Shown piece after piece: positions 2,796-24,417 of a stretch of DNA of 26,128 bases (position 1 is the first letter of the stretch; each line of letters starts with the position of its first letter). The position numbers were made by a program, and so were the translations under genes. The stretch is from a virus (lineage: Duplodnaviria > Heunggongvirae > Uroviricota > Caudoviricetes), in IMG/VR virus record IMGVR_UViG_2713897073_000006, one strand, 5' to 3'. A model generated the notes under the pieces. The model saw nothing but the letters and a program-made list of their open reading frames with translations. It was not told where the DNA came from and made no database searches.

Positions 2796-3737
2796 TTACA
2801 TAGATGTTTCGTTTAATTCTTCTCGACGAACGCTGTAAACGTCGGTGGCTTTTGCCAGCAGTTCGTCATCATCTGAAAGTTTTTGTGCAATGTATTTGTA
2901 AGCTTTATCCAGTTCGAAGACAGTGCTGTAATTCATCGCTGCGCTGGTAAAGGCCATCAGCATTTCTTCTGGATCACGGCTATCCGCTTTACGCGTTTGC
3001 TCATCAGGCTTTTTCACTTGTTTAGCGTTGATCAGACTGTTCATTCCCGCAGCAGTGGTCGTTTGCGGAGTAATGTCTCGCTCAACGCGCGGTGCCGTTT
3101 CCTGTAATTCGTCTGGTGTGTAGACGCCCATGATTACGTCAGGACAGTGCAGGCGAGACCAGCGTTTTGTCGCAAGGTATGCGAGTTGTTGTTTCGGATC
3201 ACTGGCCCAAAGTGTGGAGTTTCTTACCTGTGCTTGAGACAGCATTAACTCAAGCACTCGAGGTTGATCCTCGCCCTTCATGGTTGCCCATACGCGAACA
3301 CCGCAGCCTTCTTCGTCTTTTAGAGTCCAGCCTGGTGCGATATATGGATTGCCGTTTTTGGATGTTTTCTCAACAAACTTACCGATCACGCGTTCCCACG
3401 GCCCGAACCACTCGTAGTTGATGCGATCTTTTGTTGGCGACATCGTTGAGATAACTGCGTTTACTAATTGGGCTTCATAACCTAGCGTGCCGTTCACAAC
3501 ATGGGTTTTCTGAGCCACGGCAAACGGGTTCATTCCCCACTGCGCAGCCTGCATTGCCACGGCCATGCAATCAGCTGGTTTCCCGGCGAGGTGCGCCGGT
3601 ACCGTTACGCGGCTTTGCGCCATTACCTCGGCGAATTTCATCAGTTGGTTCAAGCCGTCTGGGCTGAAAATAGTTGCAGCAGTTCCAGCGATTGCTGTGT
3701 CTACTGGTGCGTTGATGTTTGCGATGTCGTTGCTCAT
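2796..3737 (-). CDS. recT: RecT/Bet-family single-strand annealing protein
   Basis: The central region (WGMNPFAVAQK...GPWERV...LWASDPKQQLAYLATKRWSRL) parallels the lambda Bet / RecT core. ATG at 3737 has an AGGA ribosome-binding site and overlaps the exonuclease stop (ATGA). The ORF track extends the frame to 3764. Confidence 0.8.
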   Translation of the reverse strand: MSNDIANINAPVDTAIAGTAATIFSPDGLNQLMKFAEVMAQSRVTVPAHLAGKPADCMAVAMQAAQWGMNPFAVAQKTHVVNGTLGYEAQLVNAVISTMSPTKDRINYEWFGPWERVIGKFVEKTSKNGNPYIAPGWTLKDEEGCGVRVWATMKGEDQPRVLELMLSQAQVRNSTLWASDPKQQLAYLATKRWSRLHCPDVIMGVYTPDELQETAPRVERDITPQTTTAAGMNSLINAKQVKKPDEQTRKADSRDPEEMLMAFTSAAMNYSTVFELDKAYKYIAQKLSDDDELLAKATDVYSVRREELNETSM

Positions 3738-5159: not shown

Positions 5160-5744
5160 TTATTGTTTGCTTTTTTCGTTCTGGTTGATGACAAATTCAA
5201 TGTAACTTTCGATCTTTGCCTTCTCTGTTTCAGGTAACAATGCGTAGCGCGAGCGGTCATAGTTGATAGTCGCGGGGTCGTGCGGGTGAATCAGTAATTC
5301 ATATCCGTGACGCCCAAATGCGGATGCAACATTCTCCAGGGTGGAAATGGAAACGCTGACCTCATTGTTTAACAGGCGGCTGATTGTTACCTGGGCGACG
5401 CCGGATGCGCGGTGAAGTTTTCCCTGCGTTGAAAGGTCGCGGCTTTCGCTCATCCAGCGTTCCAGGTTGTGAGCCGCCAGTTGACCAATGTCGCTTGGTC
5501 CGACAGGCTGAAAACCTTCCTGAGAAAGCGAGCGATCGATATCAAGCCAGTTACGGGGTTTATTGGCGGCAGCTTCAATTTTTCGCGCAACCTGGTCGCC
5601 GATAACCTTCTTGCCAAGAGCCCAGCGGTTTACCAGATTTGCCTGAGTTCCAAGTTTTTCAGCCATCCGCGTCTGAACACCATTGAATTCACGGTCGATC
5701 AAGTCGTTGAGATTTTGCCTGCGGACGTCCTGGATACTTTTCAT
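5160..5744 (-). CDS. Prophage repressor, two HTH-like segments and no S24 peptidase domain
   Basis: 194-aa ORF divergent from the Cro-like gene. HTH-like segments QTRMAEKLGTQANLVNRWALGKK and ASGVAQVTISRLLNNEVSVSISTLENVASAFG. No Ala-Gly / Ser-Lys autocleavage module is visible. Confidence 0.75.
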   Translation of the reverse strand: MKSIQDVRRQNLNDLIDREFNGVQTRMAEKLGTQANLVNRWALGKKVIGDQVARKIEAAANKPRNWLDIDRSLSQEGFQPVGPSDIGQLAAHNLERWMSESRDLSTQGKLHRASGVAQVTISRLLNNEVSVSISTLENVASAFGRHGYELLIHPHDPATINYDRSRYALLPETEKAKIESYIEFVINQNEKSKQ

Positions 5745-5799: not shown

Positions 5800-5814
5800 T
5801 TACCCAACAGGTAA
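5800..5814. promoter_or_regulatory. Palindromic operator-like site TTACCcaacaGGTAA (site c)
   Basis: Perfect TTACC-N5-GGTAA in the repressor/cro divergent region, on the repressor (PRM) side. Confidence 0.6.
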
Positions 5815-21855: not shown

Positions 21856-21875
21856 AAAAAATCCCGCAGCGCGGG
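21856..21875 (-). terminator. Rho-independent terminator after the 147-aa accessory gene
   Basis: Stem CCCGC / GCGGG (21863-21867 / 21871-21875), loop AGC. On the minus strand it is followed by a six-T run (complement of AAAAAA at 21856-21861), right after the stop at 21877. Confidence 0.6.
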
Positions 21876-21876
21876 C

Positions 21877-22320
21877 TTATTCTTCTTCTTCATCATTAAA
21901 AAGCGGATTGTTGTTTCCATCTGATGAAAGGAAAGGTATGTGTTCTCTTGAAAATCCAACAATGACAATTTCATTATCATTTTTTGCATAATGAATGCAT
22001 TCATTAGAATGCATTCCGCCAGGGTTGAAATTTAAGTTAATGGTATAATTCTTAAATGTGTTTGGATACCATGTTGGCCCACAATGATAATGCCAATAAT
22101 TCTCTTGCTCATAATTGTCTGAGCCTGGAATTTTATCATGGTTATCATCAACCCACGAGGGCTTGTTTTTTCCAACAAGCGCCCTTCCATTGGCAACATC
22201 CTCTAAAAACCTTTGTATGATTTTTATTTCATCATCAGTAAGGAAAGGTCCGTCTACAGCGAAAGGGGTGTTGCTTTCCCCATGTAGAAAACTATTAGAT
22301 ATTCTAATGTTAAACTTCAA
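21877..22320 (-). CDS. Hypothetical accessory protein, AT-rich gene (147 aa, TTG start)
   Basis: TTG at 22320 preceded by AGGAG at 7-nt spacing. Coding sequence is visibly A+T-rich compared with the flanking virion genes. Product has an acidic NDEEEE tail and His/Cys/Trp-rich segments (ENYWHYHCGPTWYPN, GGMHSNECIHYAKND). No family recognised. Confidence 0.55.
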   Translation of the reverse strand: MKFNIRISNSFLHGESNTPFAVDGPFLTDDEIKIIQRFLEDVANGRALVGKNKPSWVDDNHDKIPGSDNYEQENYWHYHCGPTWYPNTFKNYTINLNFNPGGMHSNECIHYAKNDNEIVIVGFSREHIPFLSSDGNNNPLFNDEEEE

Positions 22321-22340
22321 GGAAAACTCCTGATGTGCTT

Positions 22341-22508
22341 CTATTTGGAGCGAAATGCCGCCTTGAAGTCGCTAAAAGATGTTCCTGTCTGGTAAACCAT
22401 ATCCTTGTCGCGCTCTTTGCTTGCGCGACCAAGCATAACTTTTCCAATGACATCCCAGCATTGCTTGGCTTGTTCATTGTGCTGAGTACGATTTTTCAAC
22501 GCTGTCAT
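22341..22508 (-). CDS. Hypothetical small protein (55 aa), upstream partner of the 147-aa gene
   Basis: ATG at 22508 with a strong AAGGAGG ribosome-binding site 8 nt upstream, directly downstream of operator site h. Hand-translated MTALKNRTQHNEQAKQCWDVIGKVMLGRASKERDKDMVYQTGTSFSDFKAAFRSK. Preferred over the plus-strand ORF 22335..22535. Confidence 0.45.
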   Translation of the reverse strand: MTALKNRTQHNEQAKQCWDVIGKVMLGRASKERDKDMVYQTGTSFSDFKAAFRSK

Positions 22509-22520
22509 ATCGCGCCTCCT

Positions 22521-22535
22521 TTACCTTTAAGGTAA
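22521..22535. promoter_or_regulatory. Palindromic operator-like site TTACCtttaaGGTAA (site h)
   Basis: Perfect motif just upstream of the ribosome-binding site of the 55-aa gene and just downstream of a TAATAT-like -10. Identical in sequence to site j. Confidence 0.6.
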
Positions 22536-22570
22536 TATTACGCGAATCTACATCACATCGCCAATGATTA

Positions 22571-22593
22571 TTTTAAAGGCACATCCCTGTGCC
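22571..22593 (-). terminator. Terminator-like hairpin after the Bro-N gene
   Basis: Stem GGCACA / TGTGCC (22578-22583 / 22588-22593), loop TCCC. On the minus strand it is followed by a T/A-rich run, 9 nt after the stop at 22602. Confidence 0.4.
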
Positions 22594-22601
22594 GCCGCCC
22601 G

Positions 22602-23330
22602 TCAGAAGAACCCTGCCTTGTCGTTGATGTACTCCGCGTGGGTCTGGATATCACGCAGGCATTTGCTCACACCGACGATGTAGCAGAACATGGTGGTCAG
22701 TTCCGCCGCCGCGCCCGATACGTCATGCCCGTCTTCCTGTAACTGGTTCAGCAAATTCATCAGCAGTGAGTTCTCCGTCAGGCCGAGAACACCAGACGGC
22801 GAATGAATCAGGCTACGGTAGCCGGGCTTCAGTGGGGCGCTGTAGGTTTTGTTCTCTATCTTCATTGCCTGCATCACTGCTGATGCTGTGGCGTTGGCTA
22901 CCTGGTCGGCAACCATCTTTATGCGTTCTTCTTGCGGGAGCGAGTTTTTAATGTAACTTCCGGTGCGGCGGATCTGAGGAAGAACCTCACCTGTAACCCA
23001 TTTACGAAAGCGGTATGGGATAGTGCCTGGTGTCACCGCATCGCGGCAGCGGAGGATCAGTGTGTAGAGGCCTGACTCGTTGATAATATTGGTTTCGCCT
23101 TGACGGCCTAAGTTAAATTTAGCCCTTTCATCATCATCAAGAGATTTTATTGACATAGTGGGGTTTGTCAGTTGAAGAGCTTTAATAACGTCTTTGGCAA
23201 CAAACCAAGGATTAATCGCAAATCCAACTCTCCTCAGAGTTATAACGCTCAAACGCTTTACACATACTTTGTGTTGGTGCTGGAGGGCGTTCAAGGGCAG
23301 CCATGACTTGCTCCCAAACATCCTCTTCAA
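22602..23330 (-). CDS. Bro-N domain antirepressor-like protein (N-terminus uncertain)
   Basis: Contains the Bro-N signature ...FAINPWFVAKDVIKAL...INESGLYTLILRCRDAV...FRKWVTGEVLPQIRRTGSY. The C-terminal roughly 90 aa are paralogous to the small protein at 24440..24697. The 5' 119 nt overlap the upstream RHH gene in another frame; an alternative ATG lies at 23156. Confidence 0.65.
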   Translation of the reverse strand: MKRMFGSKSWLPLNALQHQHKVCVKRLSVITLRRVGFAINPWFVAKDVIKALQLTNPTMSIKSLDDDERAKFNLGRQGETNIINESGLYTLILRCRDAVTPGTIPYRFRKWVTGEVLPQIRRTGSYIKNSLPQEERIKMVADQVANATASAVMQAMKIENKTYSAPLKPGYRSLIHSPSGVLGLTENSLLMNLLNQLQEDGHDVSGAAAELTTMFCYIVGVSKCLRDIQTHAEYINDKAGFF

Positions 23331-23496
23331 CGATCAAGCGGCGATGTTCATTAATAACTGTTTCAGCTCTAAAAGTCGCAGACTCCATTACAAATTGAGA
23401 TACGGACACTTTAGAAATAACAGCAGCTTCTTCGATACGGCGCTTCGCAGCTTCGGGCAGACGAAACTCGAACCGCTCCTTTCTTACTGCGTTCAT
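23212..23496 (-). CDS. DUF1778 / TacA-like ribbon-helix-helix protein (antitoxin-type fold)
   Basis: ATG at 23496 with AGGAG 5 nt upstream. The 94-aa product MNAVRKERFEFRLPEAAKRRIEEAAVISKVSVSQFVMESATFRAETVINEHRRLIVEEDVWEQVMAALERPPAPT matches the DUF1778 antitoxin pattern. No GNAT toxin gene follows. Confidence 0.75.
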   Translation of the reverse strand: MNAVRKERFEFRLPEAAKRRIEEAAVISKVSVSQFVMESATFRAETVINEHRRLIVEEDVWEQVMAALERPPAPTQSMCKAFERYNSEESWICD

Positions 23497-23560
23497 AACA
23501 ACTCCTGAGCTAATGCTCACAGTGGTTTATACCACATAACGATATGCACGGTACGGGAAT

Positions 23561-23575
23561 TTACCGTACAGGTAA
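23561..23575. promoter_or_regulatory. Palindromic operator-like site TTACCgtacaGGTAA (site i)
   Basis: Perfect motif 65 nt upstream of the RHH gene start, in the promoter region of the RHH / Bro-N operon. Confidence 0.6.
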
Positions 23576-23653: not shown

Positions 23654-23668
23654 TTACCTTTAAGGTAA
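23654..23668. promoter_or_regulatory. Palindromic operator-like site TTACCtttaaGGTAA (site j)
   Basis: Perfect motif 21 nt upstream of the ATG of the zinc-ribbon membrane-protein gene. Identical to site h. Confidence 0.6.
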
Positions 23669-23688: not shown

Positions 23689-24417
23689 ATGGAAGTTTTC
23701 TGGATAGTTGTTGGTGTGGTTGCGGTGATTATTTACGTTATCAACCAGAACAAGACTAAGATCTCTGATCGTACGGTCGTTAATCATAACAAAACGATAA
23801 AGACCGAAGATGGGGAGATAACGATTAATCGTACACAGGTGATAGAACACACCTCTACTCAGTTTCAAAAAACTGGAGGTAATGCGCCTAATATTTCCGC
23901 ACCTCCTGCTTATGATAGTGCGGTAATCCAGACATATTATAAACAGCAGGAGTTAGCAAAAGAGAGGCAACTGATTCAGCCAAAGCCGTTTACAACTGAG
24001 ATTCCACCTGGAGTGTCAACGCGTCCGGCATATCATGGAAGATTCCCTGGTGATGACATATCGTCTCAGTCATCTAAAAAAGCACCTCAGGCAATATCAG
24101 AGCCAGCAAGAATACCTTCTGTATCGCCGCAAAAAGAAGAATCAGCTAACAGAGTTTCAAGTGGTAGCAAGCAGTGCTTGCGATGCAGAATAAACCTTCC
24201 ATATGAAAAATTCAGGAAATCGTCAAAAAATCCAGATGGATTGACTAAATGGTGTGCAAGGTGTCTCGATGGCCCAAAGAATACACGCCATATGAAGTGG
24301 TGCCCAATTTGTAATGTCCGCAGAAAACGAACCAGCTTTTACCCTAATAATCAAAATGCGGACGGCTTAATGGCATGGTGCAAAACGTGCTGGGATGAGC
24401 ACAAAGCGAAACGATAG
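23689..24417 (+). CDS. Membrane-anchored protein with C-terminal tandem C4 zinc ribbons (function unknown)
   Basis: GAGG ribosome-binding site. N-terminal hydrophobic helix MEVFWIVVGVVAVIIYVI, long polar Ser/Pro/Gln-rich linker, then two repeats of C-x2-C ... (N)xDGL-x2-WC-x2-C (CLRC...PDGLTKWCARC and CPIC...ADGLMAWCKTC). Confidence 0.7.
   Translation: MEVFWIVVGVVAVIIYVINQNKTKISDRTVVNHNKTIKTEDGEITINRTQVIEHTSTQFQKTGGNAPNISAPPAYDSAVIQTYYKQQELAKERQLIQPKPFTTEIPPGVSTRPAYHGRFPGDDISSQSSKKAPQAISEPARIPSVSPQKEESANRVSSGSKQCLRCRINLPYEKFRKSSKNPDGLTKWCARCLDGPKNTRHMKWCPICNVRRKRTSFYPNNQNADGLMAWCKTCWDEHKAKR

What the first reader, a model, noticed from the sequence alone, without database searches (positions are those of the whole stretch)
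21856..22535. AT-rich two-gene cassette (55 aa plus 147 aa) with its own operator, strong ribosome-binding sites and terminator
A compact minus-strand unit has operator site h, a 55-aa gene (AAGGAGG ribosome-binding site), a 147-aa gene (TTG start, AGGAG ribosome-binding site) and an intrinsic terminator. The coding DNA is visibly more A+T-rich than the surrounding virion genes, as expected for a horizontally acquired moron. Neither protein matches a family I recognise. A small upstream gene plus a larger downstream gene is the typical layout of toxin-antitoxin or abortive-infection and defence cassettes carried in prophage accessory loci.
Basis: partly seen in the sequence, partly recalled or inferred. 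Interest (0 to 1): 0.65.

Follow-up and report, generated by a model that had tools for sequence, protein, structure and literature searches.

The report
Unnamed RelE-fold toxin–antitoxin cassette in prophage
A small, AT-rich two-gene insert in an E. coli prophage most likely encodes a toxin–antitoxin pair: the toxin is predicted to fold like the RelE family of RNA-cutting toxins but matches no named family, and its promoter carries the phage's own repressor-binding site.

Summary
The cassette is 39.3% G+C against 48.8% for the window, the lowest stretch in the window.

The 55-aa protein is predicted as two helices with no DNA-binding domain. Its core is recognisably encoded directly upstream of the toxin homologue in 22 of 26 genuine loci examined. 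These include tailed and filamentous prophages, 3-kb plasmids and a chromosomal islet.

In related phages the same slot holds other two-gene cargos, one with a YafO-family toxin.

The "operator" is a perfect copy of TTACC-N5-GGTAA. The motif occurs 11 times, including between the repressor and cro-like genes.

Best reading: a sequence-novel RelE/ParE-superfamily toxin–antitoxin module, probably a histidine-dependent RNase, with its promoter gated by the phage repressor. Toxicity, neutralisation and repression are inferred, not tested.

The parts
22578..22593 (-). Hairpin GGCACA-GGGA-TGTGCC just after the Bro-N stop codon. It marks the left (upstream) conserved border of the cargo slot.
   Evidence: Read directly. 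The same sequence is present in TL-2011b, EC.W1-9 and Phi05_1387 B, after which the sequences diverge.
22559..22564 (-). Putative -35 hexamer TTGGCG
   Evidence: Read. It lies 18 nt from the TAATAT hexamer and, together with it, matches 8 of 12 consensus positions, below the threshold of the scan. Inferred.
22535..22540 (-). Putative -10 hexamer TAATAT
   Evidence: Read. TL-2011b has a -10 hexamer placed the same way against the operator (TACTAT then TACC...), and so does window site 23561-23575, where one search places a TATCAT -10-like hexamer ending at 23575. Inferred.
22521..22535 (.). Operator: the perfect palindrome TTACCTTTAAGGTAA, lying between the -10 hexamer and the ribosome-binding site
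   Evidence: 11 sites with at most one mismatch against 0.41 expected. The same motif is clustered between the repressor gene (5160-5744, minus strand) and the cro-like gene (5899 onward, plus strand).
22515..22521 (-). Ribosome-binding site AAGGAGG of the 55-aa gene
   Evidence: 6 nt before the ATG.
22341..22508 (-). 55-aa gene: putative antitoxin. Basic (pI 9.8), predicted as two helices, with no DNA-binding domain.
   Evidence: (phrog_8607). The homologous core lies upstream of toxin homologues in 22 of 26 genuine loci. The two E. coli variants compared differ by synonymous changes only.
22327..22331 (-). Ribosome-binding site AGGAG of the 147-aa gene
   Evidence: 6 nt before the TTG.
21877..22320 (-). 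147-aa gene (TTG start): putative RelE/ParE-fold toxin, probably a histidine-dependent endoribonuclease. Acidic (pI 4.84).
21856..21875 (-). Intrinsic terminator: stem CCCGC, loop GCT, stem GCGGG, then ATTTTTTG. It marks the right conserved border of the slot.
   Evidence: The same hairpin is present in TL-2011b in flipped orientation.
5160..5744 (-). 194-aa helix-turn-helix repressor of the prophage: the presumed binder of the operator (acts in trans)
   Evidence: Pfam HTH_3, E 1.2e-9. Operator-like sites at 5800, 5817 and 5848 lie between it and the cro-like gene. Overexpressing the repressor of phage ZX5, of the same genus, shut off lytic transcripts (PMC9782041). I did not compare this window's protein with that repressor.

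Best explanation
The cassette is a mobile two-gene toxin–antitoxin-type module.

**Toxin.** The 147-aa protein is a sequence-divergent member of the RelE/ParE (BECR-fold) toxin superfamily. It most likely cuts RNA. The active site would be built from H77 and H79 (strand WHYH), H110 and Y111 (strand IHY), H127 and F130 (just after the last strand) and K53. This resembles the histidine-based site of YafQ.

**Antitoxin.** The 55-aa basic protein, translated first from the same transcript, most likely neutralises the toxin by direct binding through its conserved helical core. It has no DNA-binding domain, so it probably does not regulate its own promoter.

**Regulation.** The promoter instead carries a perfect copy of the operator used in the prophage's own immunity region. 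The phage repressor probably keeps the cassette off in the lysogen. The cassette would then be transcribed when repression is lifted, on induction or on fresh infection.

**Translation.** The weak TTG start of the toxin gene, against ATG with a strong ribosome-binding site for the partner, should hold toxin synthesis below antitoxin synthesis.

**Shown here:** the anatomy, the predicted fold, the residue conservation, the co-conservation of the pair, its mobility, and the operator family.

**Inferred:** toxicity, RNase activity, neutralisation by binding, and repression by the phage repressor.
For: **Fold**
- AlphaFold2 model: mean pLDDT 90.3, pTM 0.85.
- Foldseek independently ranks YafQ, RelE and ParE first, with target-normalised TM-scores of 0.55-0.65, although its E-values are not significant.

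**Catalytic-type conservation**
- In 79 diverse relatives, H79 and H127 are invariant.
- N52, K53, S55, H77, Y78, H110, Y111 and F130 are at least 90% conserved.
- YafQ uses H50 or H63 as base, H87 as acid and F91 for base stacking (PMC4652777).

**Pairing**
- A small co-oriented gene ends 1-31 nt before, or overlaps, the toxin homologue in every genuine locus that could be scored.
- Its core is recognisably homologous in 22 of 26 such loci. The Vibrio filamentous-phage partner, found later, shows the same motif by eye.

**Mobility typical of toxin–antitoxin modules**
- An Erwinia chromosomal islet between the acetyl-CoA carboxylase alpha-subunit gene (Pfam ACCA) and an IF-2B-family gene.
- Cryptic plasmids of 2.7-4.6 kb, on which little else is annotated beyond a putative replication gene.
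- The nin region of a Klebsiella lambdoid prophage.
- A Vibrio filamentous phage.
- Uetakevirus-like prophages of Pectobacterium and Serratia.

**Same slot in a relative**
- TL-2011b carries a 59-aa gene plus a YafO-family toxin gene there.

**Antitoxin**
- Predicted as helix 2-36 and helix 45-53, pTM 0.35, no Pfam domain.

**Start codon**
- A TTG or GTG toxin start is conserved in Erwinia, Pectobacterium and Serratia.

**Operator**
- 11 sites against 0.41 expected, clustered between the repressor and cro-like genes.
- Every alternative cargo in this slot has its own copy between the promoter and the first gene.
Against: **No sequence-level link to a named toxin family**
- Pfam, NCBIfam and PADLOC are negative for the window protein. 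Pfam is also negative for the 30 close relatives and for 20 distant ones.
- Profile comparison with YafO gives only E 0.02-0.046 and probability 1-2%.
- Sequence searches of the PDB find nothing relevant.

**Charge is inverted relative to RelE and RelB**
- The putative toxin is acidic (pI 4.84, net charge about -12) and the partner is basic (pI 9.8). An acidic protein is an odd ribosome or RNA binder.

**The fold cannot separate RNases from ParE-type gyrase poisons** (PMC11980606).

**Repression fits poorly with classical addiction logic.** If the antitoxin were labile, shutting the operon off when lysogeny is established would release the toxin.

**The promoter is weak by consensus**.

**The complex could not be modelled**, and there are no expression or toxicity data.
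Confidence: 0.62

Rival explanations
1. It is a toxin–antitoxin pair, but the toxin is a ParE-type DNA gyrase poison rather than an RNase.
For: - Gerdes 2025 notes that fold alone cannot separate the two activities (PMC11980606).
- The closest analogue in antitoxin design, PaaA2, which lacks a DNA-binding domain and sits in a prophage, pairs with a ParE toxin (PMC8630535).
Against: - The best structural matches are RNases: RelE, YafQ, YoeB and HigB.
- The family keeps a cluster of invariant or near-invariant histidines plus a lysine and a tyrosine. From the secondary structure of the model I infer that these lie on the strands, and just after the last strand, where YafQ carries its catalytic residues.
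- From my own knowledge, ParE toxins lack such catalytic histidines.
Confidence: 0.1
2. It is not an addiction or defence module. It is a lytic-cycle accessory: a phage-encoded RelE-fold RNase made early after derepression to reshape host or phage mRNA pools, in the manner of T4 RegB. The small protein would act as its modulator or timer.
For: - The operator position implies expression only when the repressor is absent.
- Every cargo in this slot, whatever it encodes, carries its own operator copy.
- The cassette follows the antirepressor operon, which carries the same operator.
- From my own knowledge, T4 RegB is a roughly 150-aa early endoribonuclease that depends on histidines and has a RelE/YoeB-like fold.
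Against: - The same gene pair sits on 3-kb plasmids and in an Erwinia chromosomal islet with no phage and no such operator.
- In the Klebsiella lambdoid prophage the operator is an orphan: the prophage's own cI-cro region lacks the motif.
- A strictly conserved neutralising-type partner is the hallmark of a toxin–antitoxin pair.
Confidence: 0.13
3. It is an anti-phage, abortive-infection-type defence system carried by the prophage. The toxin–antitoxin pair would be triggered by an infecting phage.
For: - It sits in a prophage cargo hotspot.
- A recent bioinformatic survey argues that RelE/ParE-fold toxins act in phage defence (PMC11980606).
- It is present in only 76 of 5426 complete E. coli genomes, an accessory distribution.
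Against: - No PADLOC model matches either protein.
- If the resident repressor keeps the promoter off, the proteins would not be present in the lysogen to sense an invader.
- No phenotype data exist.
Confidence: 0.1
4. The roles are reversed, or the acidic 147-aa protein is a non-enzymatic decoy or anti-defence protein.
For: - The charge pattern is inverted: the large protein has pI 4.84 and an acidic DEEEE tail, and the small protein has pI 9.8.
Against: - The charge is not conserved across the family. The median pI is 6.7 in the broad alignment and 9.5 in the short relatives.
- The histidines are conserved.
- The fold is that of a toxin enzyme.
- A net charge of -12 is modest next to known DNA mimics (my own knowledge).
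Confidence: 0.05

Closest known systems
YafN–YafO of E. coli (Pfam PF13957, YafO_toxin)
   Same: - Gene order is antitoxin first, then toxin.
- The toxin is larger than a typical RelE (132 aa for YafO, 147 aa here).
- The motifs come in the same order: a helix, then G-[KR]-[ND], then xHxH on a strand, then TS...(H)xxY, then a terminal S/P..H. Both profile alignments place them in this register.
- A YafO-family pair occupies exactly this slot in phage TL-2011b.
   Different: - There is no Pfam hit for the window protein or any of 30 close relatives, even at E up to 10, nor for 20 distant relatives at E up to 0.01.
- hhalign gives probability 1-2% and E 0.02-0.046, which is not significant.
- This family has an extra segment of about 24 residues between the WHYH and IHY strands, inferred by comparing alignments A1 and A5.
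- From my own knowledge, YafN is a Phd/YefM-type antitoxin with a DNA-binding domain, whereas the 55-aa partner has none.
DinJ–YafQ and the RelE, YoeB and HigB mRNA interferases
   Same: - The candidate histidine-rich active site resembles YafQ's H50, H63, H87 and F91.
   Different: - Sequence identity is 9-19%.
- The protein is about 55 residues longer.
- It is acidic rather than basic.
- Ribosome dependence is unknown.
PaaR2–PaaA2–ParE2 of the cryptic prophage CP-933P (E. coli O157:H7)
   Same: - It is a RelE/ParE-superfamily toxin–antitoxin pair inside a prophage.
- Its operon is controlled by lambda-CI-like and Cro-like prophage regulators and is wired into the prophage regulatory network (PMC8630535).
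- From my own knowledge, its antitoxin is short, helical and lacks a DNA-binding domain.
   Different: - In that system the regulator gene is part of the operon and the toxin is a ParE.
- Here no regulator is encoded in the cassette. The operator matches the master repressor's sites elsewhere in the genome, and the toxin looks like an RNase.
Bacteriophage T4 RegB endoribonuclease (from my own knowledge, not tested)
   Same: It is a phage-encoded, roughly 150-aa, histidine-dependent endoribonuclease with a RelE/YoeB-like fold, made early in infection.
   Different: - RegB has no partner inhibitor gene.
- The family studied here also lives on plasmids and chromosomes.

Membership tests
RelE/ParE (BECR-fold) toxin superfamily | The characteristic small alpha/beta fold: N-terminal helices packed on an antiparallel sheet | tested here: met
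   - Model pLDDT 90.3.
- The Foldseek top hits agree, although their E-values (0.1 or higher) are not significant.
RelE/ParE (BECR-fold) toxin superfamily | A sequence match to one of the 13 Pfam toxin families listed by Gerdes 2025 | tested here: not met
   No such Pfam family matched the window protein or its 30 close relatives at E up to 10, nor 20 distant relatives at E up to 0.01. The family list is from PMC11980606.
RelE-type mRNA interferases (RNase branch) | Conserved acid/base residues on the sheet face and the C-terminal segment | tested here: inconclusive
   - H79 and H127 are invariant. H77, Y78, H110, Y111, K53 and F130 are at least 90% conserved.
- Their positions parallel YafQ's H50, H63, H87 and F91.
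- No residue-level superposition was available, and there is no activity test.
YafO family (PF13957) | A match to the family profile | tested here: not met
   No Pfam hit, whereas E. coli YafO scores 1.9e-37 and TL-2011b gp44 scores 8.1e-6.
YafO family (PF13957) | Remote homology by profile-profile comparison | tested here: inconclusive
   hhalign gives E 0.046 and probability 1.2% for A3 against A4, and E 0.02 and probability 2.3% for A5 against A4. The motifs align in a consistent register.
Type II toxin–antitoxin module | A two-gene operon with a small partner gene tightly coupled to the toxin gene, inherited as a unit across unrelated genomic contexts | tested here: met
   - Twenty nucleotides lie between the two genes in the window.
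- The partner core is recognisably homologous upstream in 22 of 26 genuine loci.
- Contexts include plasmids, a filamentous phage, a chromosomal islet and a lambdoid prophage.
Type II toxin–antitoxin module | The toxin arrests growth, and the antitoxin neutralises it by direct binding | not testable with these tools
   No complex prediction was possible, because only single window or database sequences were accepted, and there is no wet-lab test.
Type II toxin–antitoxin module | The antitoxin carries a DNA-binding domain and autoregulates the operon | tested here: not met
   - No Pfam or NCBIfam domain.
- AlphaFold predicts two helices with pTM 0.35.
- The promoter instead carries the phage operator.
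Phage moron / accessory cargo | A self-contained unit with its own promoter, flanked by terminators, of deviant composition, and variably present among close relatives | tested here: met
   - Composition.
- Terminator.
- Alternative cargos in this slot, and a deletion derivative in phiV10.
- Expression from the repressed prophage, which is often taken as part of the definition, is doubtful because of the operator.
Immunity operator of the resident phage | A repeated palindrome concentrated at the repressor/cro divergent promoters and at other phage promoters | tested here: met
   - Eleven sites with at most one mismatch against 0.41 expected.
- Three sites lie between the repressor and cro-like genes, and two lie at the leftward early region.
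- Binding by the 194-aa repressor was not testable.
Known anti-phage defence systems (PADLOC-DB 2.0) | A match to any component model | tested here: not met
   No hit for either protein at E up to 1.

The most novel reading that the evidence does not exclude
The slot downstream of the antirepressor in these phages may be a dedicated cargo site. Its cassettes, including two different RelE-superfamily toxin–antitoxin pairs, would be deliberately wired to the phage master repressor through a private operator copy.

The toxin would then be silent in the lysogen and released as part of the lytic or entry programme. It could serve host-translation shut-off, commitment to lysis, or killing of cells in which development aborts. 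On this reading, a toxin–antitoxin module has been repurposed as a repressor-gated lytic effector rather than as an addiction or defence device.
Probability: 0.2. Interest if true: 0.65.

Novelty: new member of a known kind. Interest (0 to 1): 0.42.

Why it matters
- **A family without a model.** If confirmed, this adds a family to the RelE/ParE toxin superfamily that current Pfam, NCBIfam and PADLOC models do not detect. A profile search of 1.84 billion representative proteins found 119 matches. RefSeq labels both genes as hypothetical in the E. coli genomes inspected.
- **Cryptic plasmids.** The homologous pairs on 3-kb cryptic plasmids may explain how those plasmids persist. The small partner gene is missing from the gene tables available for the three plasmids examined.
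- **A testable regulatory case.** The operator finding gives a concrete case of toxin–antitoxin cargo placed under a phage's master repressor. It bears on the open question of what prophage toxin–antitoxin modules are for: addiction, defence or lytic function.
- **Practical value.** It would improve annotation of 76 complete E. coli genomes and of several phage records.

Tried and rejected
**Searches that found nothing useful**
- Pfam, NCBIfam and PADLOC scans of both proteins and of relatives gave no relevant hits.
- Sequence searches of the PDB with the protein and with the 79-sequence profile gave nothing relevant. A cytochrome c555 and Cks1 matched short, low-scoring stretches and I judged them spurious.
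- Foldseek against viral predicted structures found nothing significant.
- The afdb50 library was not available.
- Rfam found only a sub-threshold Trp-leader match over the terminator region, so there is no evidence of an RNA antitoxin.
- No paper in the library mentions the RefSeq accessions of the two proteins.

**Tests that came out weak or failed**
- BLASTP of the 147-aa protein against the TL-2011b YafO-like toxin was not significant.
- Profile comparison with YafO was weak, so I do not file the protein as a YafO member.
- The search for related loci with the broad alignment failed for lack of conserved stretches. The narrower alignment worked, but one of its 19 loci (L036) is a false positive and one (L024) gave no callable toxin ORF.

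**Ideas considered and rejected**
- That the operator is bound by a cassette-encoded protein. I rejected this because the motif is clustered in the immunity region, precedes unrelated cargos, and is absent from the Erwinia and Proteus copies inspected and from all Pasteurellaceae loci.
- That the operator belongs to the slot backbone. I rejected this because each cargo brings its own divergent promoter with an operator, and the Klebsiella lambdoid copy carries one far from any matching immunity region.
Full report
**Where the window comes from.** The window is a prophage of the phiV10/epsilon15 type (genus Uetakevirus) in E. coli.
- The 1.2 kb around the finding is 98.5% identical to phage HEMP4 and 96.9% identical to phiv142-3.
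- The 680-bp cassette is 100% identical to the chromosome of E. coli O6:H16 strain M9682-C1 and several other strains.
- It occurs, always with at least 80% of its length, in 76 of 5426 complete E. coli genomes, and only on chromosomes.

**The observation.**
- The perfect palindrome TTACCTTTAAGGTAA lies at 22521-22535. It overlaps by one base a TAATAT -10-like hexamer.
- AAGGAGG lies 6 nt before the ATG of a 55-aa ORF (22341-22508).
- After a 20-nt gap that contains AGGAG comes a TTG-initiated 147-aa ORF (21877-22320).
- A G+C-rich hairpin with a T tract follows (21856-21875).
- The cassette is 39.3% G+C against 48.8% for the window, and the lowest 680-bp stretch of the window lies here. The toxin gene is 35.1% G+C with 29.7% at third codon positions.
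- Both ORFs are real genes. Each belongs to a PHROG family (phrog_8607 and phrog_5954, both of unknown function). RefSeq annotates both as hypothetical proteins.
- In two E. coli variants the small gene differs only by synonymous changes.

**What the 147-aa protein is.** Sequence methods say nothing: there are no Pfam, NCBIfam, PADLOC or PDB-sequence hits.
- A word-indexed search found 36 clusters, all unnamed, in Enterobacterales and Pasteurellaceae.
- A profile search of 1.84 billion representative proteins found 119 matches. None of the 20 I sampled has a Pfam domain.
- The alignment shows the blocks GKNKPSW, (Y)WHYH(C)G, (I)HY and S..H.PF.
- Across 79 diverse members, H79 and H127 are invariant. 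N52, K53, S55, H77, Y78, H110, Y111 and F130 are at least 90% conserved.
- An AlphaFold2 model built from 31 sequences is confident (pLDDT 90.3, pTM 0.85).
- Foldseek gives the same families at the top, with target-normalised TM-scores of 0.55-0.65 but non-significant E-values.
- From the secondary structure of the model, the conserved histidines lie on the central strands and just after the last strand. That layout parallels the YafQ active site: H50 or H63 as base, H87 as acid, F91 stacking (PMC4652777). I could not superpose residues, so this step is an inference.

**Relation to YafO.** By eye, the motifs of this family parallel those of YafO: AHIH, TSD.HLVY and P..H. Profile-profile comparison puts them in the same register in two independent alignments. 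The scores are weak, however (E 0.046 and 0.02, probability 1-2%). I treat YafO as the nearest named family by resemblance, not as the family of this protein.

**What the 55-aa protein is.**
- It is basic (pI 9.8) and has no domain hit.
- It is predicted as a long helix (residues 2-36), a loop and a short helix (45-53), with no compact fold (pTM 0.35). This is the look of a toxin-wrapping antitoxin that lacks a DNA-binding domain.
- Its own sequence family is narrow (12 clusters). Reading upstream of toxin homologues shows that the partner is always there:

| Context | Upstream partner |
|---|---|
| Erwinia | 58 aa |
| Pectobacterium | 56 aa |
| Serratia | 57 aa |
| Proteus | 62 aa |
| Three 3-kb plasmids | 60-62 aa, missing from the gene tables available |
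| Vibrio filamentous phage | 50 aa |
| Klebsiella lambdoid prophage | C-terminal ~40 residues of a 102-aa protein |
| Pasteurellaceae | C-terminal ~40 residues of 159-185-aa proteins |
| Neisseriaceae (Kingella, Neisseria) | 197-211-aa proteins with a similar C-terminal end by eye only |

- Two small HMMs seeded from different subgroups both reach the Haemophilus proteins. Together they recognise the partner in 22 of the 26 genuine loci then in hand. The Vibrio phage partner, found afterwards, shows the same motif by eye.
- The other four loci (Aeromonas, Kingella, Neisseria, Enterobacter adelaidei) also have an abutting or overlapping co-oriented upstream gene.
- Gaps between partner and toxin run from overlaps to 31 nt.

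**Mobility.** The pair turns up in many unrelated settings:
- behind a Bro-N gene in Uetakevirus-like prophages of E. coli, Pectobacterium and Serratia;
- in the nin region of a Klebsiella lambdoid prophage;
- in a filamentous Vibrio phage;
- next to a giant polyvalent protein in a Pasteurellaceae element;
- as a lone islet between housekeeping genes in Erwinia (next to the genes for DNA polymerase III alpha and acetyl-CoA carboxylase alpha);
- on 2.7-4.6-kb plasmids on which little else is annotated beyond a putative replication gene.

A strictly paired, self-mobile, two-gene unit with a RelE-fold protein in the second position is the signature of a type II toxin–antitoxin module.

**The slot.** Sequence shared with relatives runs up to the hairpin after the Bro-N stop codon and resumes at the terminator. 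Between these borders:

| Phage | Cargo in the slot |
|---|---|
| This window | 55 aa + 147 aa |
| TL-2011b | 59 aa + 181-aa toxin passing the Pfam YafO threshold |
| EC.W1-9 and ZX5 | 108 aa + 167-aa DUF2335 membrane protein |
| Phi05_1387 B | 72 aa + 125 aa |
| phiV10 | deletion that also removes most of the next gene |

**The operator.** TTACC-N5-GGTAA occurs 11 times in the window with at most one mismatch, against 0.41 expected. The sites are:
- three, one of them weaker, in the 154 bp between the 194-aa helix-turn-helix repressor gene and the divergent cro-like gene;
- two at the leftward early region;
- one after the cro-like gene;
- two before the late operon;
- one before the DUF1778/Bro operon;
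- one before the gene at 23689;
- one before the tail-fibre gene;
- one in front of the cassette.

This is the pattern of the phage's own immunity operator. Overexpressing the repressor of phage ZX5, of the same genus, reduced lytic transcripts by more than 99.9%, and the Bro-N protein acts as antirepressor (PMC9782041).

Every alternative cargo in the slot has its own copy between its promoter and its first gene, embedded in otherwise unrelated sequence. The Erwinia chromosomal copy and the Proteus copy have none in the stretches I read, and no Pasteurellaceae locus contains the motif. I did not scan the plasmid loci for it.

The Klebsiella lambdoid copy keeps one perfect site, although that prophage's own cI-cro region lacks the motif. 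There it looks like an orphan carried along with the cassette.

The simplest reading is that in this prophage the cassette is repressed in the lysogen and transcribed on derepression. That is inferred from position only.

**Mechanism, with the steps marked.**
- *Shown:* the two-gene anatomy, the predicted fold, the conserved histidine, lysine and tyrosine set, the co-inheritance of the pair, the operator family, and the weak toxin start codon. TTG or GTG is conserved in four Enterobacterales genera.
- *Inferred:* the 147-aa protein is a growth-arresting endoribonuclease; the 55-aa protein blocks it by binding; the phage repressor gates transcription.

**Points against.**
- The putative toxin is acidic (pI 4.84, net charge about -12) and the partner basic, the reverse of RelE and RelB. 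The charge is not conserved across the family, however.
- Fold alone cannot exclude a ParE-like gyrase poison (PMC11980606).
- Repressor control sits uneasily with a labile-antitoxin addiction logic. This keeps open the reading that the pair serves the lytic programme.

**Comparison with what is known.**
- Gerdes (2025) catalogued 13 Pfam families of BECR-fold toxin–antitoxin toxins. This protein matches none of them, so it is a sequence-novel family within a well-known superfamily and system type.
- The nearest regulatory analogue is paaR2-paaA2-parE2, a toxin–antitoxin operon embedded in a prophage CI/Cro-like circuit (PMC8630535). From my own knowledge, its antitoxin lacks a DNA-binding domain. 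In that system the regulator is part of the operon.

**Verdict.** A defence role is untested.

It is a new member, at the level of a new sequence family, of a known kind. Interest is moderate. It rises if the repressor-gated, lytic-phase use of toxin–antitoxin cargo is real.

Noticed in passing
window 23212-23520 (-) and 22602-23330 (-): A DUF1778/TacA-like gene (Pfam E 5e-20), normally the antitoxin of GNAT toxins, sits directly upstream of the Bro-N antirepressor gene and overlaps it. No acetyltransferase toxin is nearby. From my own knowledge TacA antitoxins are ribbon-helix-helix proteins, so it may act as an Arc/Mnt-like regulator of the antirepressor. Phage phiv142-3 lacks it at this position.
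   Followed up: partly
window 5026, 5088, 5800, 5817, 5848, 6185, 8131, 8193, 23561, 23654, 24774: The operator TTACC-N5-GGTAA precedes nearly every transcription unit, including the late structural operon and the tail-fibre gene. This suggests that one repressor directly silences the whole genome rather than only the early promoters.
   Followed up: partly
L020-L031 and L033-L034, upstream genes ending at about 2995-3001 (about 1599 in L034): In Pasteurellaceae and Neisseriaceae the partner is 159-211 aa long, with a hydrophobic, signal-peptide-like N-terminus. In Pasteurellaceae only the last ~40 residues are detectably homologous to the 55-aa protein. In the Neisseriaceae proteins the resemblance is by eye only. 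The large N-terminal domain matches no Pfam family.
   Followed up: partly
L043, L044, L045 (plasmids NZ_CP032420.1, NZ_CP115364.1, NZ_MG212498.1): Cryptic plasmids of about 3 kb carry a homologous pair at 43-47% identity. The 60-62-aa upstream gene is absent from the gene tables available for all three records.
   Followed up: yes
L046 4833-5435 (Vibrio phage 10N.261.55.B9_PE002): A filamentous (Tubulavirales) Vibrio phage carries the same pair. The 50-aa partner, with the EYKK.CDDVLLSR motif, directly abuts a toxin homologue of 42% identity.
   Followed up: partly
L001 3277-3858 (phage phiv142-3, MN187550.1): The GenBank annotation of phiv142-3 misses the intact toxin gene. In its place it annotates a 52-aa ORF in another frame.
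   Followed up: yes
L040 778-1579 and L042 778-1364: Two further cargo types occupy the same slot: 108 aa plus a 167-aa DUF2335 membrane protein (phages EC.W1-9 and ZX5), and 72 aa plus 125 aa with no family match sought (Phi05_1387 B). Each has its own operator copy.
   Followed up: partly
window 21863-21875 compared with L002 about 3265-3277: The 13-nt terminator hairpin at the right border of the slot is the exact reverse complement of the one in TL-2011b (CCCGCGCTGCGGG against CCCGCAGCGCGGG). The palindromic stem may itself be the recombination border.
   Followed up: no
window 23689-24417 (+): A 242-aa protein with a hydrophobic N-terminus and a cysteine-rich C-terminal part (weak Stc1 match). 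It has its own perfect operator at 23654-23668, and no gene is annotated at this position in phiV10 or phiv142-3. It is probably another cargo gene.
   Followed up: no
L039 7038-8680 (E. coli M9682-C1): In a genome whose cassette is 100% identical to the window, the tail-fibre gene is truncated and followed by an IS21-family element. That prophage copy is probably defective.
   Followed up: no
L037 9165-9445 (Klebsiella lambdoid prophage): The nin-region copy of the module has an extra 95-aa gene in front. It is preceded by a terminator and by the only perfect TTACC-N5-GGTAA site in 20 kb. The prophage's own cI-cro intergenic region lacks the motif.
   Followed up: yes
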